A stretch of 64,000 nt of DNA from Malacoraja senta (taxonomy: Eukaryota). The stretch covers positions 2,542,001 to 2,606,000 of the forward strand of contig CM075991.1 of NCBI GenBank assembly GCA_038087875.1. Direction: 5' to 3'. The notes beneath the pieces were generated by a model. It was given only the letters and a program-made list of their open reading frames with translations, searched no databases and was not told the origin of the DNA. Position numbers and translations under genes: made by a program. This document shows positions 15,042 through 56,581 of the stretch, piece by piece; position 1 is the stretch's first letter; the number at the start of each line of letters is the position of its first letter.

Positions 15042-15895
15042 GTCTACATCTACACTCACGATGCCTTGGGAAAACAGCCAACATAATCTTCACCCCAGTT
15101 ATTCCCTCTTTCCTTCAGGCAGAAGATACAGTGACAGTTAGGAATGACACATGAAACATTAATGAACATAAAACAAATAGTGAATCGATTCAGTACGTCC
15201 TCCAAATCCAATATTTCCTCCTTGTTTAGGAAGGAAATATTAGCTTTGGAGGAGGTACTGAAGAAGGGTCTCGACCTGAAACATCATCCATTCAGGCTTG
15301 AAGGAACGTATCACCATGTTCGAGAACAACTTCAGTCTCTGTTATCAGGTTGCTGAACAGTCCTTTGACAAGCTAGGGTGCAGTCCCAATCTTCCAACCT
15401 ACCTTACTGTGGACTACGGATCTATACTTTACTCTTACATTATACAAAAGTAGCAATTTTTTTGTTCCGTACGCAGCGGAGTACAAAGGTAAGGATACTC
15501 AATATGATACCCGACATGAGATTGCAGTTTCTCTGTTCTGCATGAAACGGGATACACAGATAATGACAATGTATATGATCCTAGCAAATACCAGCTGGTG
15601 GCTTCTGCGCGCTGCATGTGTCAAGGTAAGGATGATGAATATGTTGACAACTGATACTAGTGGCATCCTCTGAACTTTGCACGCAGTGGAGTTCAAAGGT
15701 AATGACAACAAATGTGTTAAGAGCACGTCTGTGTGTATTGGAGGCATAATGGTAATGAGTGTGTATGTTAAATAGCAAATACTAGCTGGCGTGGAGCAAT
15801 TCAAAGGTAGGGAAAATGAATATGTTAAATAACATTCTAACTGGCAGCTTGGTTTAATGTATTAATGAATTGTACACCTCAATAGTGTTTGAGGT

Positions 15896-15948
15896 GGGGT
15901 GGGAGATTGCAACCTTCACATGGTCCGCCCTGTTTCGACGAATGCAAT
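15896..15948 (+). ncRNA. Predicted minimal HDV/CPEB3-like ribozyme (L3 variant TTCACAT)
   Basis: P1 GGGGTGG/CCGCCCT, P2 ATTGCA/TGCAAT, P3 ACC/GGT, J4/2 ACGAA. Confidence 0.7.
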
Positions 15949-16021
15949 CAACCTGGCGTGCACAATCAAATACAAGTTGTCCTACAACTTTTGGCTGTGC
16001 ACGCTATAGGCAAGAAGAAGA
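15896..16021 (+). mobile_element. Short retroposon headed by an HDV-like ribozyme, copy 1
   Basis: TSD AGTGTTTGAGGT (15884-15895 and 16022-16033), (AAG)n tail, near-identical to 54057-54194. Confidence 0.85.
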
Positions 16022-16049
16022 AGTGTTTGAGGTGTACAACAGTCTATAC

Positions 16050-22169: not shown

Positions 22170-23138
22170 CTAAACTCTTTCTGCAAATAATACAGGATCT
22201 GCTAGCGGCTTATTGTAGAACGTTTGGAACGTTTTCTCCATGGACCACCCCACTGTAGCCAGGATGTGGTCCAGTGGCACGTCCATCCTTTTAGCCGCCG
22301 ATGTGGACGCTGCCCTGATGGAGTGAGATGTATATACGTCAGTATCTACTCCAGCAGCTCCCAGTACCTGCTTGAGCCATCTTGAGATAGTTTGGCTCGA
22401 CACCCGACCATGAGGTTTCTTGTGGCTGACCCATAAGGCTTTTTCTCTCCCTCGGGAATCTCTTGTTGTGTTGATGTAAGTGAGTAAGTGGGTCATGACA
22501 CATAACCGTGGGTCAGGTGGGTATGCCCGGAAATCCATAACTAGGCCTGAAGTTCCTGGCCTGCTCTGCTTTAGCAGCTCCTGAATGGTGAATGAGACAC
22601 GGTCTGGTGTTATAACCATGTTGTCCAGTCGCAGTAAGTGGAGGGACTGGACTCTTTGTGCTGAGACTAGTGCCATCAGCATGACCGTTTTCAGGGTTAG
22701 CTGTTCCAGGGTGAGAGACCTGGCTGGTGACCATCCCCTTAGGTATGTCAGGACCACACTGACATCCCAGATTTGGGTGTACCTAGGTCTAGGGGGGTTG
22801 GAGTTGAATATACCACTCATGAGTTTGATCACCAGCGGGTGAGACCCTATGGCCTGTTGTCCTGGTGCCTGTTTTAAGTAGGCTGACAGAGCACTTCTGG
22901 CAGTATTGATGGCGCTGTAGCTCAGTCCTTCATTATGGTGAAGGCCGGCCAGGAACTCGAGTACATTGGTTATGGTTGTAAATGAGTACGTTGTCCCAGT
23001 ATTCGAGCAGTATCTTTCCCACTTCCTGATGCTCGATAGGTATTGTTTCCTGGTGGACATACGGTGGGACGCTGTCATCGTGTTGATGGTCCTGTCAGAC
23101 AATCCCAGGCCCAGCAGTGGTCTTTTCATAATCTGCAA
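22170..23138 (-). CDS. DIRS tyrosine recombinase
   Basis: SAQR, HSIR, GWS...FY catalytic pattern; 322-aa open ORF. Confidence 0.92.
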   Translation of the reverse strand: MQIMKRPLLGLGLSDRTINTMTASHRMSTRKQYLSSIRKWERYCSNTGTTYSFTTITNVLEFLAGLHHNEGLSYSAINTARSALSAYLKQAPGQQAIGSHPLVIKLMSGIFNSNPPRPRYTQIWDVSVVLTYLRGWSPARSLTLEQLTLKTVMLMALVSAQRVQSLHLLRLDNMVITPDRVSFTIQELLKQSRPGTSGLVMDFRAYPPDPRLCVMTHLLTYINTTRDSRGREKALWVSHKKPHGRVSSQTISRWLKQVLGAAGVDTDVYTSHSIRAASTSAAKRMDVPLDHILATVGWSMEKTFQTFYNKPLADPVLFAERV

Positions 23139-23716
23139 CCCAGTAGGTTAATTTTGTCATGGCATGGATGACTTATGCCTGATACCGGGTGAGTCAATAG
23201 GTCTGGGCTACTGGGAAAGGTCATAGGAGTTTCGATGACCATGTCGAGGACCACTGGGAACCATGGCTGTGTAGGCCAGTCGGGTACTATCAAAATACCT
23301 GAAGCAGAGTCCATCTGTATTTTGCGCAGTACCCGACTGATGAGGCAGAAGGGGGGAAAGGCATAAAAGAAATAGTTTCCCCAGTCCAGCGTGAATGCAT
23401 CTATCGCTGCTGCCTCAGGGTCTGGTTCCCAAGCGACATACATTGGTACCTGGTGATTTAGTCTGGATGCAAAGAGATCGATATCTGGTGTGCCATATTG
23501 CTTTGTAATTTTAGCAAATGCTTTAGGATTTAACATCCATTCGGTGTTATCATTGAATTTGCGTGACCTGGTGTCTGCCACTGTATTTAGCTTACCTGGT
23601 AGGTAAGTTGCTGATAGCCAAATATGTCTATCAACACACCATTGCCAGATTATGTTGACCAAATTGTCACATGATATCGATTTTATTCCGCCCATATGGT
23701 TAATATAGGCCACCAC
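23126..23716 (-). CDS. DIRS RNase H C-terminus plus Dam-like methyltransferase domain
   Basis: VAYINHMGG, LPGKLNTVAD (RNase H); DIDLFASRLN, YAFPPF, IVPDWPTQPWF (MT domain). Confidence 0.88.
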   Translation of the reverse strand: MVAYINHMGGIKSISCDNLVNIIWQWCVDRHIWLSATYLPGKLNTVADTRSRKFNDNTEWMLNPKAFAKITKQYGTPDIDLFASRLNHQVPMYVAWEPDPEAAAIDAFTLDWGNYFFYAFPPFCLISRVLRKIQMDSASGILIVPDWPTQPWFPVVLDMVIETPMTFPSSPDLLTHPVSGISHPCHDKINLLGCRL

Positions 23717-23726
23717 TGTGGTATTA

Positions 23727-24420
23727 TCAATCTGTAAACGAACATTGCAAATGGTGCATATTCGTAGAATATGCTTTTAAACCATAAAACGCACCCAACA
23801 TTTCCAAATAATTTATGCCCAGTGTCTGTAGTAAAGATGATTCTAGGTTAGTCCATCTACCACCTGTGCTGGATATGGTATTAGTTGCTCCCCAGCCTTG
23901 AGCACTGGCATCTGTTTGTATAGTTAACGTTGGGTTATTGATGATGATAGGGCTGGAACTATGCCAAATGTGCTCTATCCACCATTGTAACTCTGATATT
24001 GCTTCAATGGGTAATTTCATGGTTCGGTCAAAGTGACCTGCATGTCGTTTTAACGCCTGCACTTTTGCCGTTGTAGGTTTTGATAGTGCAGAGGTCCAAA
24101 TTGTGTAGCTGGAAATGCTGCTACTATTTTGCCAATTACTCTTGCCACTTGTCGGATGGTTGGTCGATCGCTAACCATTAAATTGTTACACGTCTGTGCC
24201 AATTCTGCTGCTTTATCTTTTGGCAATGTTACAGACATGTGGACTGAGTTAATTGTGAATCCCAGATGGTCCATAGTTGTGGATGGCGTCAACTTAGATT
24301 TATCTGGATGTAAGACAAATCCCAGGGTTTCAAACAATTGTTTGGTAGCTAATACAGCTGATTTAGCCAATTCCATGGTTTTGCCTACTATTAGAATATC
24401 ATCAAGATATGCCATGACAA
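23727..24420 (-). pseudogene. DIRS RT C-terminal part and RNase H, frameshifted
   Basis: AYLDDILI, TDAS, INYLE motifs across ORFs 24050-24415 and 23727-24062. Confidence 0.88.
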
Positions 24421-24437
24421 TATGTCTCTGTTTTCTT

Positions 24438-27400
24438 TTTTTTTTTTTTTTTAATTTGTATTTTATTAGAAGTACATTACATTACAACCACATACATTAG
24501 TACTTGTCATTTATATCTTCTTACAATTAATGTACTCCATTTATTTTGTACACTAGAAAAGGAAAAGATTGAAAGAAAGAAGAAAGTGAAGGAAAAAGTG
24601 GAAGTGTAGGAAATGTGACAACAAAAAAGGACAAAGACCCTATAAGAGCAAAATTAAAAACAAAAGAAAAAGAGTTAAGAAATAGACCCTAGGAAAAAAA
24701 GAAAGAGAGAAAGAGGAAAAAGAGAGAAACAAATATTTTTATGAGCATTACGCAAATTGGACATACCAACTCTTCAACTATCATCCCCCCTTACCTGACC
24801 TCAATTTTTTTTTTCAAGTACTTTTGCACCTTATGTTTGTAATAATTCTATAAATGCAGACCACGTCAGGTGGAAATGATCTGGTTTACCTGCTAGGAGG
24901 AGTCTTATCTCTTCTAGGTGTAATGTTTCAAACATATTTGAAATCCACATATTTATAGTTGGTATTGGAGCCTTCTTCCAAAATTTTAGAATTAGCTTTT
25001 TTCCAGTTATTAACCCATAGTCCATTAGTTTCTTTTGAAACACATTTAGTTCTGGACCATCTTCCGTTATACCGAAGATAATCCATTCTGCTTTGGGTAT
25101 CAGTCTTGTTTTAAATAACTTTGTAAAGATTTCAAAAATTTCATTCCAAAATTTTTGAATTTTTGTACAAGAAACGAATGAGTGCGTTATAGTAGCTTCT
25201 TGGGATTGACATTTATCACAAATAGATGATACATTTGGGAAAATTTTATGAATTTTAGTTTTCGAATAATATAATCTATGTAAAATTTTAAATTGTATTA
25301 AAGTGTGTCTTACATTAATCGAGCATTTATGCACGTTTAATAAGTATTCATTCCAACTTTCCTTTGAAATTTTAATAGCTAACTCTTGTTCCCAGTCTCT
25401 TCTGATACCCTCCGTAGATGGTATTTGTGCATTTAAGATAATATTCTACAAATATGATATTAAGTTTGCTGATTCCGCTTTTATCTGCATTGCCTCGTCC
25501 AGTACATCTGCTGGGTTATTATGATGATCTTTTGTATATTTTTTCAAATAGTCGCATATTTGAAAATATTTAAAATATTGATTATTTCCGAGTTTATATT
25601 TTATTTGTAATTGTTGAAATGAAAGTAATTTTCCAGTTTCATACAAGTCACCAAGCGTTTTAATTCCTAATCTATCCCATTGTGTATAAGCTTTATCTAT
25701 AATAGAAGGATTAAACGAAGGGTTATTGACTATAGGTAATAAAAGTGATAAATTTCTTAATTTTAAATTTTGTTTTATTTGTTTCCAAATTCGGATTGTA
25801 CTATGGATAATTGGGTTCTTATTATAATTTATGTTATTGAATTTCATTGGAGAGAGGAGGATCGCTCCAATGTTTCTAGAGGAGCAATCCTCTTTCTCCA
25901 TTACAATCCAATCCACTTGCTGGGCGGAGTTATCCATCAGTTGAATCATATTTTTAATATTTACTGACCAATAATAATACATAAAATTAGGTAGTGCTAA
26001 ACCCCCTAATACTTTAGGTTTATTCAGATGAGTTTTTTGTATTCTATGTGATTTATAGTCCCATATAAAATTAGTGATATCTGAGTCGAGTTTTTTTTTA
26101 AACTTCTTTGGTAAGTATATAGGAATTGATTGAAATAGGTATAAAATTTGTGGTAAAAAAAATCATTTTTATTGCGTTTATTCGGCCTATTAAAGACATC
26201 GGGAGCGTTTTCCAGAATTTAATTAGTGTGTTTAATTTATTAAGTAAGGGGTCAAAATTTGCCCTAAACATACCTTGATATGATCTGGTAATTTTGATTC
26301 CCAAATATTTAAATTTTTCTGTAGCTATTTTAAAAGGGAATTTTAAAAGATGTGATGAATCTTTCGGTTTTATTGACATAATTTCACTTTTATTCCAATT
26401 TATTCTATATCCAGAAAAAGATCCAAAATCTTCAATTAAATTTAATATATTTGGTATAGTGATTTGAGGTTTTGTAATGTACAGTAATATATCATCCGCG
26501 TATAAAGATATTTTATTATATGAATCTTTAGTATTATATCCATGGATATCAGGGTGTATTCTAATTTTTTCTGCTGGCGGTTCAATAATGAGAGCAAACA
26601 GTTGTGATGATAATGAGCATCCTTGTCTATTTCCCCATGATAGTTGGAATTTCGAGGATAATATGTTATTAGTTAGTATTCTAGCTGTAGGTTTGTTATA
26701 TAGTAACTTGATCCATAGAATAAAATTCTCCCCCAGTTGAAATTTTTGTAATACTTTGTCCATATAATTCCATTCTACTTGATCAAATGCTTTTTCAGCA
26801 TCCAGCGAAATAATTGATAATTCTTGATCTTCAGATTTGTGTGAATGCATTATGTTGAGTAGACGTCTCATATTGTTAGATGAGTATCTCTTAGGGATAA
26901 ACCCCGTCTGATCTGGGTTTATTAATTTACTAATGTATTTACTTAATCTTCTAGCTAATGTTTTCGCTAATATTTTTTGATCTGTGTTTAACAATGCTAT
27001 AGCTCTATATGAACCAGGTTCTTCTAAGTCTTTATTTTTCTTAGGTATTAATGTAATCGTTGATTCCGCTAATGTATCAGGTAGTATTCGTTTTTTAAAA
27101 GCATATTGGTACATTTTTTGTAATCTTGGTATTATTTTATCGTAAAAGCTTTTATAAAATTCATTAGTAAATCCGTCAGGGCCTGGTGTTTTTCCATTCT
27201 TTAGTGAGTTTATTGTATCTTCTAATTCCTTAATTGAGATTTGTGCACCCAGTTCATCTTGTTCCTTCAATTCTAACTTTGGAAGGTTACAGGTATCCAA
27301 GAACTTTGTGATATTATTGGAATCACTTGTTGTTTTAGATGTATACAAATTCTCATAAAATTGCGCAAATCTATTATTAATATCCTTTGGTGTTGTTAAT

Positions 27401-29175
27401 AATTCCCCTTTATCTGATTTGATCTTTGGTATAGTATGTTCCTTTTCTCGTTTTTTTAGCTGGCGAGCCAAAAGTTTATGCGGTTTATCCCCAAATTCAA
27501 AGTGCTCTTGTTTTGTAATTTGAAAAAGTTTAATAAGTTTGGCAGATAATAATTTATTTAATTTAAATTTCAAAATTATTATTTTATTATGTTTATCTAT
27601 TGATGGATCTTTAGCATTATCTATATCCATTTGTCTAATAAGTTCTTCTAACTGTCTTTGTTCATTCTTATTATTTTTATTTTGAAAAGCTTGATATGAA
27701 ATTATAATACCCCTAATGTATGCTTTAAAAGATTCCCATAATACAGTAGGCGATATATCTGGAGTATCATTTATTTGAAAAAAGACCTCCATTTGTTCTT
27801 TTAAATATATACTCGCTTGTGGATCTTTTAGAATTTGAGAATTGAATCTCCAAAACGATTTATTCTTAGACAATCCTTCCAGTTTTAAAAAGAAAGTTAG
27901 TGGAGAATGGTCTGAAATCGAGTTTGTGTGGTATATTGCATTAGATGTTTGGGGGATTAATTTTGTATCCAGCAGAAAGTAGTCTATACGTGAGTATGAC
28001 TTATGTACCATTGAGTAAAACGAGTATTCCCTGCCAGTTGGATGAACAATTCTCCAAACATCTGCTATATTAGTGTTTTTTATATAGGTATTGAGAAGCT
28101 CCCCAGTTTTTGATTTCATATTCCCTCTCTGTTTTTGACTTGATTTATCTAAGTACGGATCTAAAACACAGTTAAAGTCTCCTCCTATTATAACATTTTG
28201 ATAGTTTGACTCTGCAATTATGTTGAAAATGTTATTGAAAAAGTGGGGGTTATCAAAGTTAGGGGCATATATATTTACCAAAGTAAGTGGAGTATCATGG
28301 ATTTCTCCATTAACTATTAGGTATCTCCCTTCTATATCTGTTATAATATTCTTTGCTTTAAATGGTATACCTTTTCTTATGATGATTGACGTGCCTCTAG
28401 ATTTTGAAGTAAATGAAGAGTGGTATGTTTGACCTATCCATTTCGCCCTTAACCTAACTTGATCCTGAGATTTTAGGTGTGTTTCTTGTAGGAAGATAAT
28501 GTCGGAGTTGTACAATTTCAGCTGAGCTAGTATCTTACCCCTTTTAATAGGTTCGTTAATACCTCTTATATTCCAACTACAAAATGAGATTCCTCCTAGG
28601 TTCTTTTGTGTGGTGTCATGCATTTTGAATAATTATAGTACCTTTAAATCTTGTGGTGCGTCCAAATCCCAGGTCTTTAGGTATTGGGGGAGCTTTTGAG
28701 TTTTTAAGTTTTGCTGTTATGTCCATTTTACGCTTGTCACTAAGCACAAAACACAAACAAGTGATTTTATGTGATAAAAAAAACCCTATAAAAGTGAAGA
28801 TACAGTGTCTAATATAGTCGGCACTGTAGCGAGTGTCCCACCTGTAGGTGGGAAAAAACCTTGTTTTGACTTCCATTGCGTTGTTACACAAATAGCTCCG
28901 CTCTCTTGGTTAATCATAACATATTATATTAAAACGGGGCCTCAGATTCAGATATATAATACACTTTTACCCTGTGTATTTCATTGTAACATATATATAT
29001 ATCGGAATTTTAACTACTGATTATTAAACCGATATTTTTGACTTCTATAAAAATCAACTGCTGGTTGAAGGGGTTAACGAGACGTGCCCCTGGACCTAAG
29101 CCAGTTGCTCGTTTCTCATCCCCTCCTCCCACTTATAGATAAGGTTTCAGTTTATTAAAAATTCATATTAGTAAG
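24438..29175 (-). mobile_element. 5'-truncated L1-clade LINE (inter-ORF spacer, ORF2, 3' UTR, polyA)
   Basis: TSD TATGTCTCTGTTTTCTT (24421-24437, 29176-29192); polyT on the + strand; TT/AAGA endonuclease-type site. Confidence 0.95.
24831..28623 (-). pseudogene. L1 ORF2 (APE endonuclease, RT, CCHC) with two lesions
   Basis: SWNIRG, LQETH, GGDFN, SRIDY, SDHSP; LDAEKAFD, YADD; CDKC..H...C; +1 in an A-run near 26155-26162 and an in-frame TAG at 25446-25448. Confidence 0.93.
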
Positions 29176-44227: not shown

Positions 44228-46265
44228 CTGAAATAAAAAGCAAAATGTTATGTTGTCAGAACATAACTCTGTTGAGGAGATATGGTAGAACATTGACTGA
44301 GGAACCAATATGATCAATAGTTCTCTCACAAATATGAAGATCAAAATGGGTCTGAAGTTTGTTCAGAGGGTAATTTTATTCAATAACAAGAGTATGTACT
44401 AAAAGTCATAGTCATAAAGTCAGAGTGATACAGTGTGGAAACAGGCCCTTCTGCACAACTTGCCCACACCGGCCAACAATGTCCCAGCTACACTAGTCCC
44501 ACTTGCCTGCGCTTGGTCCATAACCCTCCAAACCCATCCTATCCCTGTACCTGTCCAACTGTTTCTTAAACGATGGGATAGTCCCAGCGTCAACTACCTC
44601 CTCTGGCAGCTTGTTCCATACACCCTCCACCTTTTGTGTAAAAAAGTTACCCCACAGATTCCTATTAAATTTTTCCCCTTCACCTTAAACCTACGTCCTC
44701 TGGTCCACGATTTACCTACTCTAGGCAAGAGACTCTGCATCTACCCGATCTATTCCTCTCCTGATTTTAAACAAATATGCTACAGATTTTATATTAAAAA
44801 ATACTAACGCTAAAAAAATAATCAAGACATTCACCATCCAAAAAAAATTCCAAGATTTTTATGTGCTGATTCTTTGTTAAAACTTAACTAGAATGTTTTT
44901 GTTCACTTCAGTTTTCCATGTGCATATGTGTACACGTTTGTAATTGCAGAAAATAAAAGTTCATTGTGCAGAAGGCATGGATAGAATATCAGATGGCGAA
45001 TAGGAAAGAGTTGACACAAATGGGTATTTATCTGATTGGCAAGATGCAATGAGTGGTGTGCCATGGAATTAGATGCTGGGCTCTCAACTTTTTATAATTA
45101 ATTTGACTTCAATGCACCATCAAAAGGCATGATTGTTGAGATTGCCAACGACAGATAGAAAAGCACAGAACTAAGTTGCAGAAAGGATAAAAGAAAAATT
45201 GACATTTGAAGACAACAAAGAAAATAATTTCAAAATAGTTGTGCTACAACGTGATAGTTGGTTTGTTTTTCCCACAGCATTTTCAAGAACAGGTCTTTTT
45301 AATAACTAAAAGGACACAAAGTGTCCAGCACTGTATCCTATTGTGTAAACCAACATCTGCAGTTCCTTGTTTCTACATTTTGATCTCTTTTTAACAGCTA
45401 CAAGTTTAGTATTTTTCCCACCAGCTAAAAATACATATCACTGCACCAGCCAATAGACGTGATTGTTTATCAATTCCAAGGACTACCCACAGTGAAACTA
45501 GCCGCTGTGTTCTTAAGAAACAATAGTGTCTAGTTACTGTGGGGTGGTTACATGGAAACTATTTCTTCACCCCCCCTTCCCCGAGACTGTTTTTTAATGC
45601 AAGACTGCCTTTTTTTCTGTTCATAAATTTCCAAAGTAACTTCTAAGTGGTTGTCAAGTTTTTTATGGAAAATCGTGTTATAACTGATTTGGTCTGTACA
45701 AATAGTGCTCTCTAACTCATCAATAACATTATATCCAATTAGATACGTGTGTTATAGCAGAACTACCTACACAGTATAGGAGGTTGTGAAATTGCCTATT
45801 TTGGCCCCAAAAATAATAAAACCCATCTAATCTAAATGGTGAGAGTATAGAACTCAGATGCAGATGGATGTGGGTATCGACGGCATGCTCCAGTAGGCTG
45901 ATATATTCAAATAATTATGGAAGTTAACAGAATGTCATTGTTTATTAATAGATAAATTGAATATAGATGGAGGAATATGCTAGTTATATAGCGCATTGGT
46001 GAGAATACAACAGCAATACTGCGTGCAGTTTTGATCTTATTCAAGGAAGGAGACAGTGTATTAGCAGTGCAAACGAGGTTTGCCTGATTAATACCCAGAA
46101 TTCAGGTTATTGTATGAGAAAAGGGCTGAACTGGCTAGGCTTGTAACTACTAAAGTTTACAACGAAGGGAATGCAAGAATCTGAGAGATCTTGATAGGAT
46201 GAATACGAGAGGGTGTTTCTTATTGAGGGAGAATTGAGGGAGAATTGAGGGAGTTTCTTATTTTT

Positions 46266-53032: not shown

Positions 53033-54056
53033 CTGCAAGTACAAAGAAAAAATGACCAGGGATGTCCACGAGAACTTAAAGATCCCGCCACATTTCAAAT
53101 ACTCCACTCTTTACGCCAAGGCCACTAAATCTCTGTAACACCCGACCAGTTCCAAACTTACCCTGAATTTGATAAGTCAAGACTTGAGTAACCGCCCTTA
53201 GACTAAATGCATGTTTGTCATTACCCTAATCAATTTGTCTTTCATGCGTTTGAGCATTCTTCCCTAAAGGAGAAGGAACATCTTCAGGACATCACCTTCA
53301 GGACAATCAGGAGGCAGCTCAAACGACAGCGAAGCATCACTACCTGACGAGCTCAATGAGTTCTACGCACTGATGTGCCTTCCTGAGCCCCCATTCGCCC
53401 TGACGGTATTATAGTCCCAGTCTCAGAGGCCGACGTCAGAAGGTCTCTGCGCATCCCTCTGCAATTAGATCCTCGACTTCCTCATCCACAGACCAGTCTG
53501 TTCGAATTGGTGGAAACACTTAATCCTCAGCAACAGTTAGCATGGGAGCACCTCAAGGCAGCGTGCTCAGCCCCCTGCTTTACTCACTCTATACCCATGA
53601 CTGCGCAGCCGGACACAGTGCAAACTCCATCATCAAGTTCACCGATGACACCACTGTTGTTCGATGAATCACAGATGGGAATGAGTCAGAGTATAGAAGT
53701 GAGATTGACCAACTGACCAAATGGTGCCAGCATAACAACCTGGCTCTCAACATCAGTAAGACCAAGGAACTGATTATGGACTTTGATAGGGGAAGGATGA
53801 GGACCCACAATCCTGTTTATATCAATGGGACGATGGTGGAAAGGGTCAATAACTTCAAATTCCTGGGCGTGCATATTTCCGAAGATCTTGCCTGGACCCA
53901 GCACACCGATGCAATTATAAAGAAGGCACATCAGTGACTCTACTTCCTGAGAAGATTACGGAGATTTGGCATGTCAAAGAGGATTCTCCTAAACATCTAC
54001 AGGTGCACGGTAGAGAGCATTCTGACTGGTTGCATCGTGGCCTGGTTCGGCAACTT

Positions 54057-54194
54057 CTTCTTGTTGTGTACGGCGTGCACAGCCTAAAGTTGTAGGACAA
54101 CTTGTTCTATTTGATCTTATTTGATTGTGCACGCCAGGTTGATTGCATTCGTCGAAACAGGGCGGACCACGTGAAGGTTGCAATCTCCCACCCC
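54057..54194 (-). mobile_element. Short retroposon headed by an HDV-like ribozyme, copy 2, inserted in a Rex/Babar LINE inside an ELMOD3 intron
   Basis: TSD GTTCGGCAACTT (54045-54056 and 54195-54206), (AAG)n tail. Confidence 0.87.
54142..54194 (-). ncRNA. Predicted minimal HDV/CPEB3-like ribozyme (intact, L3 TTCACGT)
   Basis: All nested double-pseudoknot elements present in the correct order; G1-U wobble; putative catalytic C at 54151. Confidence 0.8.
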
Positions 54195-56581
54195 GTTCGG
54201 CAACTTGAACGTCCAGGAGCGGAAAAGACTACAAAAAGTTGTGACCACTGCCCAGTCCATCACTGGCTTTGACCTCCCCACCATCTAAGGGATCTATCGT
54301 AGTCGCTGCCTCAAAAAGGCAGCCAAAATCATCAAAAACCCACATCATCCTGGCCACACACTCATTTCACCATTGCCATCAGGAAGAAGGTACAGGAGCC
54401 TGAAAACTGTAACGTCCAGGTTCAGGAACAGCATCTTCCCTACAGCCATCAGGCTATTAAACACAACAATGAATAAGCTCTGAACTGCAAAAGACTATAT
54501 TATTATTGCACTATATTTGTTATTTATTGAACTTTTTTTCCCTCTTCCCCCATTATATACAATGTTTACATATTCACATATTCTGATGTGCTGCTGCAAG
54601 TAAGAATTTCATTGTCCTATCCAGGACATATGACAATAAAACACTCTTGACTCTTGTCTTGTAATTCTGACGTTGGTCCATGCTGTATTTAATCATCATT
54701 GCCTGAATTTATCCTGATCAGCTGCAGTTAGTTCCGAATCAAATTTCATTCAATTGCTTTTATTATCCCTATTTCTCAGCATTCCACATTTTTCCTCGAA
54801 TGAACTGCATCTGTAGTTCCCTCTGCAGGTCCTGATAGATCCACTGCTACATTCCCTGCATCTCTCTCCCACAGCACTAATACGCTAATTTCTTTACGAA
54901 ATTGTGATTCCTCAATTTGGAATGGGCAGCAAACCTCAATATCATATGTCAGTGGCCATCATCCATAAACCCAACGGACTTCCATCCTGCAATGCTCACA
55001 TTTTGAGGACAAAAACAAAGTGTTGGAGGAACTTAGTCAGGCAGCATCTGTGGAGGGAATGAACCTACATTATTTCAGGTCAGAACCCTTCTCAAAACAT
55101 CATCTGTCTATTTCTCTTCACAGATACTGTCCGACCTGCTAGGTTCCTCAAGCAGTTTGTTTTTTGCTGAAAATTCCAGCATCTGCAGTTTCTTTTGTCT
55201 CAACCTTTCAATCGAGCATCACATTTGCCATCTATAATCTTTTGGCACAATTAAACACTGCCCATAGATTTTGTGCAAATCATGATGCAAGTCTGTACAT
55301 TTTTCTCCCGGGTCTTCTCCAGTATCTGGTTTCACTATCAACATCTGATGATTTTTCTACTTTTATTCTCGTTAAATAATAGCTCCTTAACATAATACAC
55401 TTTCAATATATCATTTAGTTTAACAGCCAGCCAGTTCATATTGTTAATAAATCCTTGCAGCAGACTTCTTATGATGCCTCTTCAAGATGTCTGCAGTTTA
55501 TTTGAATTCTATCCAAATTTACTAACATCAAAATTCATCTCACGTTCCTTGGCAACTTGCTCATTGTCTTGTGAACATTACCAAAGAGTCCCAACGCAAA
55601 ACGTTGGCTATCCATGTGCTCCAGAGATGATGCCTGACCCGCTAAGTTACTCCAGTACTTTGTGTTTTTTTTATTAACAAACAACAGGATCATCTGAACC
55701 CAACAATTCAGAGCAGTAGTGACAGAATGCTGCACTGTCAGAGTATTGCTTTGTTAATGAGATATTAAATTGAAGCCCTCTTTTCCCTTTAAACAAAGGG
55801 ACACAAAGTGCTGGAGTAACTCAGCGGGTCTCACAGCATCTCTGGAGAACATGGATAGGTGATTTTTTGGGTAATCTCCAATCCATGTTCTCCAGCGACC
55901 TGACCCGCTGATTTACACCAGCACTTTGTTTCTTTTTTGCAGAAAACTTTCCAGTAACTATCTTTAAATGATTGGTCATGAAGCAGATTTATGTCTTAAA
56001 AGATTTATATAAATACAACTTTTTTTACACGTCACTTAGTTCCAACTGTTGTAACACCAGAGAACTGCAAACAGCAATAATCTCACAACAGAATCTTGCA
56101 TAATTTCATGGTTTAGTTTTGGAGATACAGCATGGAAATAGGCCCTTCGGCCCACCGAGTCAATGCCGAACATCGATCACATGTTCATACTAGTTCTACG
56201 ATATTCCACTTGCGCTTCCATTGCCTACACATGAGGGGCAACTTTACACAGGCCAATTTACCAAGTGACTTGCATGTTTTTGGGATGTGGGAGGAAACCC
56301 ACGCGGTCACAACAAAAACGCACAAACTCCACAAAGGCAACACCTTAAATCGAGATTAAACCCGGGTCTCTGGCGCTATAAAGCAGCAGCTCTATCAGTG
56401 CACAATAGATAAGACATATAATAGCCACATAATTTACATTATAGAATCCACCATAAGCATATTATAATGAAAGAAACACAGCATAAAAGGCAGCACAGAA
56501 GTAATTTTCTCAAATAAGCAAAACATTAAATGAAAGAATGATGACGGTGCACACAGCTTCCTTCTGTCTCTTTGTGCATAC

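What the first reader, a model, noticed from the sequence alone, without database searches (positions are those of the whole stretch)
54057..54194. Ribozyme-headed SINE: a 53-nt HDV/CPEB3-like ribozyme plus a stem-loop and (AAG)n tail
Seen: two copies (15896-16021 on +, 54057-54194 on -), each with its own 12-bp TSD and both starting at the same base. The 5' end reads GGGGTGG(P1)-GAG-ATTGCA(P2)-ACC(P3)-TTCACGT(L3)-GGT(P3')-CCGCCCT(P1')-GTTTCG-ACGAA(J4/2)-TGCAAT(P2'). No tRNA A/B boxes are visible. Established: this is the nested double-pseudoknot order of HDV-like ribozymes; L3 UUCACGU, the G1-U wobble and CGAA in J4/2 match the mammalian CPEB3 ribozyme; HDV-like ribozymes process the 5' ends of R2 and RTE retrotransposons. 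Inference: a promoterless short retroposon that cuts itself out of host read-through transcripts (cleavage 5' of G1 is exactly the element boundary) and is mobilised by an RTE-type LINE via the (AAG)n tail. P4 is almost absent, so it would be among the smallest such folds. I do not recognise it as a described SINE family but cannot exclude that it is catalogued.
Basis: partly seen in the sequence, partly recalled or inferred. Interest (0 to 1): 0.93.

Follow-up and report, generated by a model that had tools for sequence, protein, structure and literature searches.

The report
Ribozyme-headed short retroposon, RTE-dependent
A 138-base jumping element present in thousands of copies begins with a stripped-down, 54-base version of the hepatitis-delta-type self-cutting RNA that also heads the RTE-type LINE elements of the same genome, so it most likely trims its own 5' end out of host transcripts and borrows the LINE's enzymes to copy itself.

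Summary
Both window copies exist, start at the same G, and each has its own 12-bp target duplication. The family has over 3,000 copies in this 1.94-Gb animal genome. In a sample of 30, 27 start at the same GGGG.

The first 54 nt fold as a nested double pseudoknot: P1 7 bp, P2 7 bp, P3 3 bp, P4 nearly absent. L3, J1/4 and the C-GAA of J4/2 are identical to Rfam's CPEB3 consensus. Rfam's own models score it below threshold.

The same genome holds RTE-type LINEs (APE+RT ORF, (AAG)n tail). Their 5' heads score up to 64 bits on the CPEB3 model (cut-off 35). A model built only from those heads finds the two window copies as its top two hits (E 6e-4 and 5e-3). Against the LINE head, 9 of 18 pairs changed on both sides with pairing kept, and 13 of 13 core bases are identical.

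Best reading: a promoterless, ribozyme-processed, RTE-mobilised non-autonomous retroposon. This is a minimal-P4 variant of a known kind (RTE and R2 ribozymes, R2 SIDEs, NARTc).

Cleavage itself is untested. One poly(A) RNA-seq lay showed no pile-up of 5' ends at G1.

The parts
54141..54194 (-). 54-nt minimal HDV/CPEB3-type ribozyme head. Coordinates run 5' to 3' on the - strand: P1 54194-54188, J1/2 54187-54186, P2 54185-54179, P3 54178-54176, L3 54175-54169, P3' 54168-54166, P1' 54165-54159, J1/4 54158-54157, P4 remnant/linker 54156-54152, J4/2 54151-54148, P2' 54147-54141.
   Evidence: Searches show all 17 named pairs are standard and that the nested MFE of the 54-mer equals P1+P3 (-12.4 kcal/mol). 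Searches align it end to end with the CPEB3, HDV-F-prausnitzii and local models. Searches show covariation.
54151..54151 (-). C44, the presumed catalytic cytosine (first base of J4/2, C-G-A-A).
   Evidence: It aligns with the C of 'GCGAAU' in the Rfam CPEB3 consensus and with the conserved C of all 40 other heads. Its function is inferred, not tested.
54071..54136 (-). Body hairpin. The outer stem pairs positions 59-69 with 114-124 (11 bp). The inner stem-loop is AAGTTGT/ACAACTT (54103-54097 with 54093-54087).
   Evidence: Predicted by the RNA fold. The whole-element z-score is only -1.5. The hairpin's function (a possible recognition element for the reverse transcriptase) is inferred.
54057..54070 (-). 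3' end and short (AAG)n tail. This copy reads ...ACACAACAAGAAG, whereas most copies read ...ACGCAAGAAGAAG.
   Evidence: Searches show the tails of the sampled copies. RTE LINE tails of the same genome end ...ACACGAAAAGAAGAAGAAG and similar.
54195..54206 (-). 5' copy of the 12-bp target-site duplication AAGTTGCCGAAC. The 3' copy is at 54045-54056.
   Evidence: Empty-site forms of the flanking repeat skip exactly 150 bases (138 + 12) in reads and contigs of 4 runs (joint 54044>54195).
15896..16021 (+). Second copy (126 nt). Head at 15896-15949, with L3 G25>A and a 12-nt body deletion. Target duplication AGTGTTTGAGGT at 15884-15895 and 16022-16033.
   Evidence: (17.9 bits, E 5.4e-3).

Best explanation
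The element is a non-autonomous non-LTR retroposon with no promoter of its own. Read-through transcription from host or neighbouring promoters produces RNA containing it. The first 54 nt fold into a P4-less HDV/CPEB3-type double pseudoknot, and C44 acts as the general acid to cut the chain just 5' of G1. Every RNA template therefore starts at the element's first base. The body hairpin and the terminal ...ACG(N)AAGAAG(AAG)n end are then used in trans by the endonuclease and reverse transcriptase of the genome's RTE-type LINEs, whose own RNAs carry the full-size version of the same ribozyme and the same tail. Target-primed reverse transcription produces 10-14-bp target duplications. Shown here: the anatomy, the copy number, the shared 5' end, the duplications, the homology and covariation of the fold, and the co-resident intact LINEs. 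Inferred: catalysis by the P4-less form, read-through transcription, and which LINE family supplies the enzymes.
For: Family. Of 40 scored matches (194 first-look candidates), all are 95-100% identical; 36 start at query base 1 and 4 at base 2. In 30 sampled loci, 27 start with GGGG at the same base, 2 lack the first G, and 1 is altered there. Upstream flanks are unrelated. 22 of 31 copies have an exact duplication of 7 bp or more, and 21 of those are 10-14 bp. Whole-genome pattern counts are 425 exact 54-nt heads, 3,041 and 3,102 for two partial-head patterns, with reversed-pattern controls of 0.

Fold. All 17 pairs of P1, P2 and P3 are standard, and the nested MFE of the head equals P1+P3. 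L3 UUCACGU, CCCUGU and CGAAU are letter-identical to the Rfam CPEB3 consensus. Model R1 was built from 40 heads of other families, with P2 not modelled. In the 64-kb window, filters off, it finds the two copies end to end as its top hits: 21.2 bits (E 6.4e-4) and 17.9 bits (E 5.4e-3). The next hit scores 11.0 bits (E 0.44).

Covariation over 72 heads (62 distinct rows). 91.3% of cells are paired, against 34.6-46.5% when partners are slid by 1-3 columns. 18 of 25 pairs change on both sides. The covariation score is 0.472 against at most 0.095 when slid, and 0 of 500 shuffles reach the observed score or percentage paired. Against the LINE head L033, 9 pairs are the same, 9 changed on both sides, 0 on one side and 0 are broken, and 13 of 13 unpaired core bases are identical.

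Partner. Rfam RF00622 run on the genome gives 39 of 59 scored candidates (60 match rows) at or above the 35-bit cut-off, the best at 64.2 bits. These sit at the 5' ends of ~3.15-kb elements with one 934-aa ORF (Pfam Exo_endo_phos and RVT_1), an (AAG)n tail and a 13-bp duplication. Open frames reach 1,014 aa among 150 scored copies of 3,241 candidates. 11 of 18 sampled ends of more distant RTE families also carry (AAG)n or (GAA)n tails.

A second short family. 'SINE B' (~190 nt, with duplications and an (AAG)n tail) has the same P4 remnant (GU UUCCA C CAA against GU UUCGA C GAA) but different, compensated P1, P2 and P3. Its head reaches 36.2 bits on RF00622.

Subfamilies. Subfamily-level changes in the head fall at position 32 (U5.G to U5-A) and position 45 (CGAA to CUAA, as in a second LINE family). 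In the first 100 of 3,102 matches the haplotypes are GG 45, GT 19, AG 17 and AT 19 (counted by eye).

Three unrelated bodies (LINE, SINE B and this element) all begin at the ribozyme's first position or within 1 nt of it.

Literature (passages read). RTE, R2, R4 and L1Tc heads cleave at the element 5' end (PMC3774820). RTEs lack their own promoters (PMC6765202). Natural minimal HDV-like ribozymes lack P4 (bioRxiv 10.1101/2023.06.13.544163).
Against: No cleavage assay exists. Rfam's curated models score the head far below their gathering scores: RF02682 gives 14.4 bits against 44, and RF00622 gives 11.0 against 35. The window-wide gathering search found nothing.

RNA. In one poly(A) RNA-seq run kept as raw reads (X24, a coded organism that may be a relative, since 604 of the 879 laid reads are only 90-95% alike), 220 reads run across position 54194 into diverse flanks. 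The table of places where many molecules begin or end is empty; its threshold is 5 reads and a fifth of the neighbouring depth. Both strands are covered. There is therefore no sign of efficient cutting at G1 in that sample, although the output does not separate sense from antisense reads or intact from decayed copies.

P4 is reduced to at most one U-A pair. Whether this core cuts without P4 is known only for other minimal HDV-like ribozymes, not for a CPEB3-type core, whose P1.1 is weak (one G-C plus a U-U; PMC4836649 passage).

No LINE was found that shares the element's own P1, P2 or P3 sequences or its body. The link to the LINE rests on the ribozyme type and the tail.

Within the young family there is almost no independent covariation. 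The covariation is between families. Some non-SINE-A rows entered the alignment through a parser that required partial pairing.
Confidence: 0.72

Rival explanations
1. The head is a relic ribozyme. It descends from an RTE-type ribozyme but lost activity with P4. The fixed 5' end would then come from something else, such as a transcription start at G1 driven by an unrecognised internal or upstream promoter in a few source copies.
For: P4 is nearly gone. Rfam scores are sub-threshold. RNA-seq reads cross G1 with no pile-up of ends.
Against: Two short families with different, compensated helices keep the same minimal core, and each reached high copy number. Subfamily changes avoid fold-breaking positions. 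No tRNA-type promoter is present. The LINE, SINE B and this element, with unrelated bodies, would each need a start site at the same structural position. Upstream flanks are unrelated, so no shared upstream promoter exists.
Confidence: 0.17
2. The folded head works mainly as a protein-binding or template-end signal for the LINE reverse transcriptase, and cleavage is secondary or absent. The 5' pseudoknot of R2 RNA, which binds R2 protein, is the precedent.
For: The review passage says R2 protein binds a pseudoknot that is part of the extended ribozyme region. The head is the only sequence-level feature, besides the tail, that the element shares with the LINEs.
Against: The conserved bases are the catalytic-core bases: L3, J1/4 and C-NAA, 13 of 13 identical to the LINE head. 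The helices vary freely, which is the pattern expected of a ribozyme rather than of a sequence-specific protein site. The two roles are not exclusive.
Confidence: 0.08
3. The resemblance is chance: an ordinary short repeat whose 5' end happens to draw as a double pseudoknot.
For: Short helices are easy to find. The whole-element fold z-score is only -1.5.
Against: The local model gives E 6.4e-4 and 5.4e-3 with nothing else under 0.4 in 128 kb searched. On top of that there is an unmodelled perfect 7-bp P2, 13 of 13 identical core bases, 9 two-sided compensations against the LINE head, and placement exactly at the element's first base.
Confidence: 0.02

Closest known systems
HDV-like ribozymes at the 5' ends of RTE-clade (and R2, R4, Baggins, L1Tc) non-LTR retrotransposons (Ruminski et al. 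2011, paper not held; cited in passages of PMC6765202, PMC3774820 and PMC11620745)
   Same: The ribozyme sits at the very 5' end. Cleavage 5' of G1 would define the element boundary. The elements are promoterless and depend on co-transcription. The co-resident LINEs here are of this kind.
   Different: This element has no ORF, and its ribozyme has lost P4 (54 nt against 72-78 nt in the LINE heads of the same genome).
R2 SIDEs of Drosophila (Eickbush & Eickbush 2012, PMC3414825, abstract seen in listing) and NARTc / L1Tc of Trypanosoma cruzi (PMC3383444, abstract seen in listing)
   Same: All are short non-autonomous elements that keep the LINE's 5' HDV-like ribozyme and a 3' end used by the LINE's enzymes in trans.
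   Different: SIDEs and NARTc are recognisable deletion derivatives that share long stretches with their LINE. SIDEs insert in rDNA. Here no body or helix sequence is shared with any LINE found, insertion is dispersed, and there are over 3,000 copies.
Mammalian CPEB3 ribozyme (Rfam RF00622)
   Same: L3 UUCACGU, CCCUGU after P1, CGAAU in J4/2, the G1.U wobble, and identical numbering up to position 38.
   Different: The element is not in a CPEB3 intron. P4 is missing. P1, P2 and P3 sequences differ. It scores 11.0 bits against a gathering score of 35. The LINE heads of this genome, by contrast, reach 45.8-64.2 bits.
Minimal HDV-like ribozymes (drz-Mtgn; Riccitelli et al. 2014, known only from citing passages) and theta ribozymes of gut phages (PMC10879173, listing only)
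   Same: The P4 domain is missing, leaving a fold of about 50-55 nt.
   Different: Those come from metagenomes and phages, next to tRNAs or of unknown context. This one heads an animal retroposon and has a CPEB3-type core.
Other ribozyme-bearing SINE-like elements: hammerhead Sm-alpha SINEs and twister-variant non-LTR elements of Schistosoma (PMC6765202 passage; PMC8501958 abstract), and retrozymes (PMC4918200 abstract)
   Same: A self-cleaving RNA motif is built into a short non-autonomous retroelement.
   Different: They use a different ribozyme class. Sm-alpha is Pol III-transcribed, and retrozymes propagate through circular RNAs.

Membership tests
HDV-like (delta-like) self-cleaving ribozyme | Nested double-pseudoknot order P1-P2-P3-P3'-P1'-(P4)-P2' | tested here: met
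   P1 7 bp, P2 7 bp and P3 3 bp, all standard pairs. Aligned end to end with two Rfam HDV-type models and the local model R1.
HDV-like (delta-like) self-cleaving ribozyme | Cytosine in J4/2 just before P2' (C-N-A-A) and a G1.U wobble closing P1 at the cut site | tested here: met
   C44-G-A-A sits directly before P2', and G1 pairs with U36. The catalytic role is inferred.
HDV-like (delta-like) self-cleaving ribozyme | Helices supported by compensatory change | tested here: met
   91.3% paired against at most 46.5% when slid, and 18 of 25 pairs change on both sides; 9 two-sided changes and 0 broken pairs against the LINE head. The support is between families only. Some rows were pre-filtered for partial pairing.
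HDV-like (delta-like) self-cleaving ribozyme | P4 helix | tested here: not met
   Only a 5-nt linker (UUCGA) remains, with at most one U-A pair. P4 is also absent in the known minimal variants, so this does not exclude the class.
HDV-like (delta-like) self-cleaving ribozyme | Score at or above Rfam's gathering threshold | tested here: not met
   RF02682 scores 14.4 against 44, and RF00622 scores 11.0 against 35. There were 0 gathering-level hits in the window.
HDV-like (delta-like) self-cleaving ribozyme | Site-specific self-scission leaving a 5'-OH at G1 | not testable with these tools
The RNA-seq lay showed no pile-up of ends at G1.
CPEB3 ribozyme family (Rfam RF00622) | Gathering score of 35 bits, and a conserved intronic locus in mammalian CPEB3 | tested here: not met
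   The element scores 11.0 bits. It is a dispersed repeat, not a single conserved locus. The LINE heads (45.8-64.2 bits) and the SINE B head (36.2 bits) do pass the score.
Classical SINE | Pol III head derived from tRNA, 7SL or 5S with an internal promoter | tested here: not met
   ARAGORN finds no tRNA-like gene. No B-box-like site lies in the element (the consensus was recalled from memory). 7SL and 5S would have appeared in the Rfam scans and did not.
Classical SINE | Short, with target duplications, dispersed, and with a LINE-type 3' tail | tested here: met
   126-145 nt long, duplications of 10-14 bp, an (AAG)n tail like that of the RTE-type LINEs, and over 3,000 dispersed copies.
SIDE / NARTc-type internally deleted LINE derivative | 5' and 3' ends recognisably identical to a parent LINE | tested here: not met
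   Only the ribozyme core and the last ~13 nt resemble the LINEs sampled. No long-P4 version with this element's helices exists in the assembly at 0 mismatches. Not all LINE families could be sampled.
RTE-clade LINE (the proposed partner, locus L041) | About 3.2 kb, one ORF with an APE endonuclease and a reverse transcriptase, a short 3' UTR and a simple-repeat tail | tested here: met
   a 934-aa ORF with Exo_endo_phos and RVT_1, a ~230-nt 3' UTR and an (AAG)n tail. The clade criteria are recalled from memory. RT phylogeny was not done.

The most novel reading that the evidence does not exclude
This genome preserves a living radiation of CPEB3-type ribozymes on RTE LINEs and their parasites. 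Two consequences would follow. First, the 54-nt P4-less head would be an active ribozyme, the smallest natural eukaryotic HDV-like ribozyme, and it alone would supply the 5'-end definition that let a promoterless ~138-nt RNA reach thousands of copies. Second, the mammalian CPEB3 intronic ribozyme, said to have no relatives outside mammals (PMC8233481), would be an exapted head of this RTE ribozyme lineage. The near-identical core and P2/P3 letters are what suggest this.
Probability: 0.3. Interest if true: 0.85.

Novelty: new variant of a known kind. Interest (0 to 1): 0.66.

Why it matters
The finding would place the P4-less 'minimal' HDV-like ribozyme, so far described from metagenomes and phages with unclear origin, in an animal genome with a clear job: defining the 5' end of a retroposon. 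It offers a natural series for asking what P4 contributes, because the same genome holds full-size LINE heads of 72-78 nt and two minimal 53-54-nt heads with compensated helices. It shows that a non-autonomous element needs only a ribozyme, a hairpin and a short repeat tail to reach thousands of copies without a Pol III promoter. As a by-product, the LINE heads supply candidate outgroups for the mammalian CPEB3 ribozyme, whose origin is an open question.

Tried and rejected
Rfam. The gathering search of the whole window gave 0 hits.

Pol III head. A tRNA or Pol III head is rejected.

Parent LINE with this element's helices. A pattern requiring this element's P3 and P2 with a long P4 found 1 hit, which is a rearranged copy of the element. 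blastn-short of the element against two full LINE copies and 18 ends of distant RTE families gave only 9-16-nt matches. An 11-nt match near the tail of one LINE family has a chance expectation of about 0.8 and was set aside.

Other minimal-P4 families. A pattern with P3' starting A or T gave 110 hits; the 100 listed were 99 decayed copies of this element and one SINE B copy. An earlier version of that pattern had one N too many and caught only copies with 1-nt insertions.

RNA runs. No RNA holder is listed on record; one raw-read RNA run came from the same study as a DNA holder. The lay itself is reported in the Against line.

Earlier findings of this scan. Nothing on this genome or sequence. 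One search listed HDV-like ribozymes in other settings that do not bear on this one.

Literature. Ruminski et al. 2011 (PMC3308841) is not held. Riccitelli et al. 2014 is known only from citing passages.

Searches for prior description: 'HDV-like'+'SINE'+'ribozyme'+'retrotransposon' gave 16 papers. 'CPEB3 ribozyme'+'RTE'+'retrotransposon' gave 2. 'HDV-like ribozyme'+'RTE'+'non-autonomous' gave 6. 'CPEB3 ribozyme'+'retrotransposon'+'origin' gave 19. A search pairing the ribozyme term with fish-group words gave no listed paper holding the ribozyme term. None describes this family or a P4-less retroposon head. Dfam and Repbase could not be searched.

Organism. It was not named. The nearest protein-atlas cluster of the LINE ORF is mostly Chordata.

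Full report
OBSERVATION. The two copies are real. Copy 2 lies at 54057-54194 on the minus strand and copy 1 at 15896-16021 on the plus strand. A 37-nt head pattern with up to 3 mismatches finds only these two sites in the window, and none in 100 shuffles. Both start GGGGTGGGAG. Each is flanked by its own exact 12-bp duplication, AAGTTGCCGAAC and AGTGTTTGAGGT. Reads and contigs of four public runs contain the flanking repeat without the element, skipping exactly 150 bases (138 + 12). This is an empty-site form and shows that copy 2 is an insertion.

THE FAMILY. The window belongs to an unnamed 1.94-Gb eukaryotic assembly. The LINE protein discussed below has its nearest atlas cluster mostly in Chordata.

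- The element matched 40 scored places of 194 first-look candidates, all 95-100% identical. 32 span bases 1-138, 36 start at base 1 and 4 at base 2.
- In the 30 loci fetched, 27 begin with GGGG at the same base, 2 lack the first G and 1 is altered there. Upstream flanks are unrelated.
- 22 of 31 copies have an exact duplication of 7 bp or more, and 21 of those are 10-14 bp. Two of the 31 are one insertion inside a segmental duplication.
- Exact whole-genome pattern counts give 425 copies of the intact 54-nt head, and 3,041 and 3,102 for two partial-head patterns. Reversed-pattern controls gave 0.

THE FOLD. Numbering from G1:

- P1 is 1-7 with 30-36 (GU GC GC GC UG GC GC).
- P3 is 17-19 with 27-29.
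- L3 is UUCACGU, and J1/4 is GU.
- A 5-nt linker, UUCGA, stands where P4 should be.
- J4/2 is C44-G-A-A.

The minimum-energy nested fold of the 54-mer is exactly P1+P3 (-12.4 kcal/mol), and P2 alone is worth -4.8.

Rfam's models see the head only weakly. RF02682 scores 14.4 bits (gathering 44) and RF00622 scores 11.0 bits (gathering 35). Both alignments run from G1, and L3, CCCUGU and CGAAU match the CPEB3 consensus letter for letter. Passages of PMC4836649 give the same numbering for CPEB3: U20, C22, A23, G25, a 4-nt J4/2 with the active cytosine, and a P1.1 made of one G-C and one U-U.

THE KEY CONTEXT. Running RF00622 on the whole genome gave 60 match rows from 59 scored candidates. 39 are at or above the 35-bit cut-off, up to 64.2 bits.

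The best hits are the first ~72 nt of ~3.15-kb elements. At locus L041 the head is followed by one 934-aa ORF with Exo_endo_phos and RVT_1 domains, a ~230-nt 3' UTR, an (AAG)n tail and a 13-bp duplication. This is the build of an RTE-clade LINE. The clade criteria are recalled from memory, and no phylogeny was made.

The LINE family looks recently active. Of 3,241 candidates, 150 were scored, and open frames reach 1,014 aa. More distant RTE families (48-62% identity) exist, and 11 of 18 sampled 3' ends also finish in (AAG)n or (GAA)n.

Other RF00622 hits head a second LINE family (J4/2 CUAA) and a second short element, 'SINE B'. SINE B is ~190 nt with duplications and an (AAG)n tail. Its head has the same P4 remnant (GU-UUCCA-C-CAA) but different helices, and it just passes the Rfam cut-off at 36.2 bits.

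IS THE WINDOW ELEMENT'S HEAD ONE OF THESE? I built a covariance model (R1) from 40 heads that exclude this family, with P2 not modelled. I then searched the 64-kb window with filters off. The two copies are the top two hits, end to end: 21.2 bits (E 6.4e-4) and 17.9 bits (E 5.4e-3). The third hit has 11.0 bits (E 0.44).

On a MAFFT alignment of 72 heads I counted the pairs of the full pseudoknotted structure. The 72 heads are 32 of this family and 40 others. 5 of the 45 RF00622-hit loci were dropped as rearranged, deleted or lacking L3: L061, L069, L074, L075 and L077.

| Measure | Structure as drawn | Partners slid 1-3 columns |
|---|---|---|
| Cells paired | 91.3% | 34.6-46.5% |
| Covariation score | 0.472 | at most 0.095 |

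18 of 25 pairs change on both sides, and 0 of 500 shuffles reach the observed score or the observed percentage paired.

Head against LINE head L033: of 18 pairs, 9 are the same, 9 changed on both sides, 0 on one side, and 0 are broken. All 13 unpaired core bases are identical.

Caveats. The covariation is between families, not within this young one. Cells count sequences, not events. Part of the non-family rows were located by a parser that required partial pairing.

SUBFAMILIES. In the first 100 of 3,102 matches, the changes too frequent to be random decay sit at two positions. Position 32 is G or A, which turns the U5.G wobble into U5-A. Position 45 is G or U, which turns CGAA into CUAA, the form seen in the second LINE family. 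The haplotypes are GG 45, GT 19, AG 17 and AT 19 (counted by eye). Both changes are neutral for the fold.

WHAT IS NOT SHARED. Apart from the ribozyme core and the last ~13 nt (...ACG-N-AAGAAG...), the element matches no LINE sampled. No long-P4 version with its helices exists at 0 mismatches. Its body is a predicted long hairpin. There is no tRNA-like or B-box feature.

RNA. No RNA run is on record as holding the stretch. One poly(A) RNA-seq run kept as raw reads (X24, a coded organism) was laid with three contig runs. 879 reads were laid, of which 604 are only 90-95% alike. 220 reads continue past 54194 into diverse sequence. The table of places where many molecules begin or end is empty. 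Both strands are covered. Depth on one strand label rises from about 61 at the 3' end to about 173 near the 5' end, while depth on the other stays at 117-237 (about 180-237 beyond the first 3'-end bin). This gives no support for efficient cutting in vivo. It is also not a clean test, because antisense transcripts, decayed copies and the high threshold (a fifth of the local depth) are not separated in the output. The DNA contig runs of coded organisms A, D and H also hold the family at very high depth.

MECHANISM, WITH STATUS. Shown: the anatomy, the fixed 5' end, the duplications, the homology and covariation of the fold, and the co-resident intact LINEs with the same kind of head and tail. 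Established elsewhere (passages): HDV-like ribozymes at the 5' ends of RTE, R2, R4 and L1Tc elements cleave at the element boundary, and RTEs lack promoters and ride on host transcripts. Inferred: the element is co-transcribed, C44 cuts 5' of G1, and an RTE enzyme primes on the AAG tail.

A structural argument favours cleavage over a promoter. Three classes of element with unrelated bodies (LINE, SINE B and this one) all begin at the ribozyme's first position or within 1 nt of it.

COMPARISON AND NOVELTY. The kind is known: ribozyme-headed LINEs and their non-autonomous parasites, namely R2 SIDEs and NARTc. P4-less HDV-like ribozymes are also known, but from metagenomes and phages, with 'origin and biological functions' undetermined. 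I found three things in no paper: a P4-less CPEB3-type head on an animal retroposon, its copy number, and its lack of any other similarity to its presumed LINE. Dfam and Repbase could not be checked, so the family may be catalogued without the ribozyme being noticed. I rate it a new variant of a known kind.

BY-PRODUCT. The LINE heads share long identical runs with the Rfam CPEB3 consensus: AGAAGCGUUCACGUCGCG, CCCUGUCA and UGCGAAUUCU. Bendixsen et al. [quoted passage not shown] If this genome is non-mammalian, as its DIRS-like and L1/Tx1-like elements suggest by inference, these heads are candidate outgroups and hint at an RTE origin of the CPEB3 ribozyme. This was not tested.

Noticed in passing
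Loci L031-L040, L059, L062 and L060 (for example L033:1501-1584, minus strand); not in the window: RTE-type LINE heads of this genome score 45.8-64.2 bits on Rfam's 'mammalian CPEB3 ribozyme' model (cut-off 35) and share long identical runs with its consensus. A 2021 paper says the CPEB3 ribozyme is unknown outside mammals. They may be outgroups, or a retrotransposon origin for CPEB3.
   Followed up: partly
Loci L043-L056 (for example L053:162-215, plus strand): A second short (AAG)n-tailed retroposon, 'SINE B' (~190 nt), has a minimal P4-less head. 12 of 14 copies have T at the position where the LINE heads have G1, and that T often lies inside the target duplication. P1' has four C plus T against four G, so the G1.U wobble is unclear. 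Part of its 3' half matches the 3' region of one RTE family (85% over 60 nt, E 3.6e-6).
   Followed up: partly
window 45516-45574 (-): This is the third-best hit of the local head model (11.0 bits, E 0.44). It reads GGGGGTG...CCACCCC with a possible P2 (AAGAAA/TTTCTT) but no clear C-NAA. It may be an old decayed head or chance.
   Followed up: no
Loci L114-L118, about 8 nt before their (GAA)n tails: There is an 11-nt exact match to positions 8-18 of the window element (GAGATTGCAAC, the J1/2-P2 strand) in the 3' end of one distant RTE family. About 0.8 such matches are expected by chance in what was searched.
   Followed up: no
window 22170-24481 (-) and 24831-28632 (-): The window is dense with mobile elements. 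It holds a DIRS-like element (tyrosine-recombinase-like and RT/RNase H-like ORFs, judged by eye) beside a long L1/Tx1-like ORF of 844 aa plus further pieces, and many CR1/L2-like RT tails elsewhere. No host gene was recognised.
   Followed up: no
window 53950-54056 and 54195-54300: The sequence into which copy 2 inserted is itself a very abundant repeat, judging by its huge depth in three DNA contig runs. Uninterrupted copies of it are also seen in RNA reads.
   Followed up: no
L033:1670-1796: A near-perfect ~127-nt palindrome (MITE-like) about 90 nt upstream of a LINE head gives several sub-threshold plant and animal miRNA-family hits on both strands.
   Followed up: no
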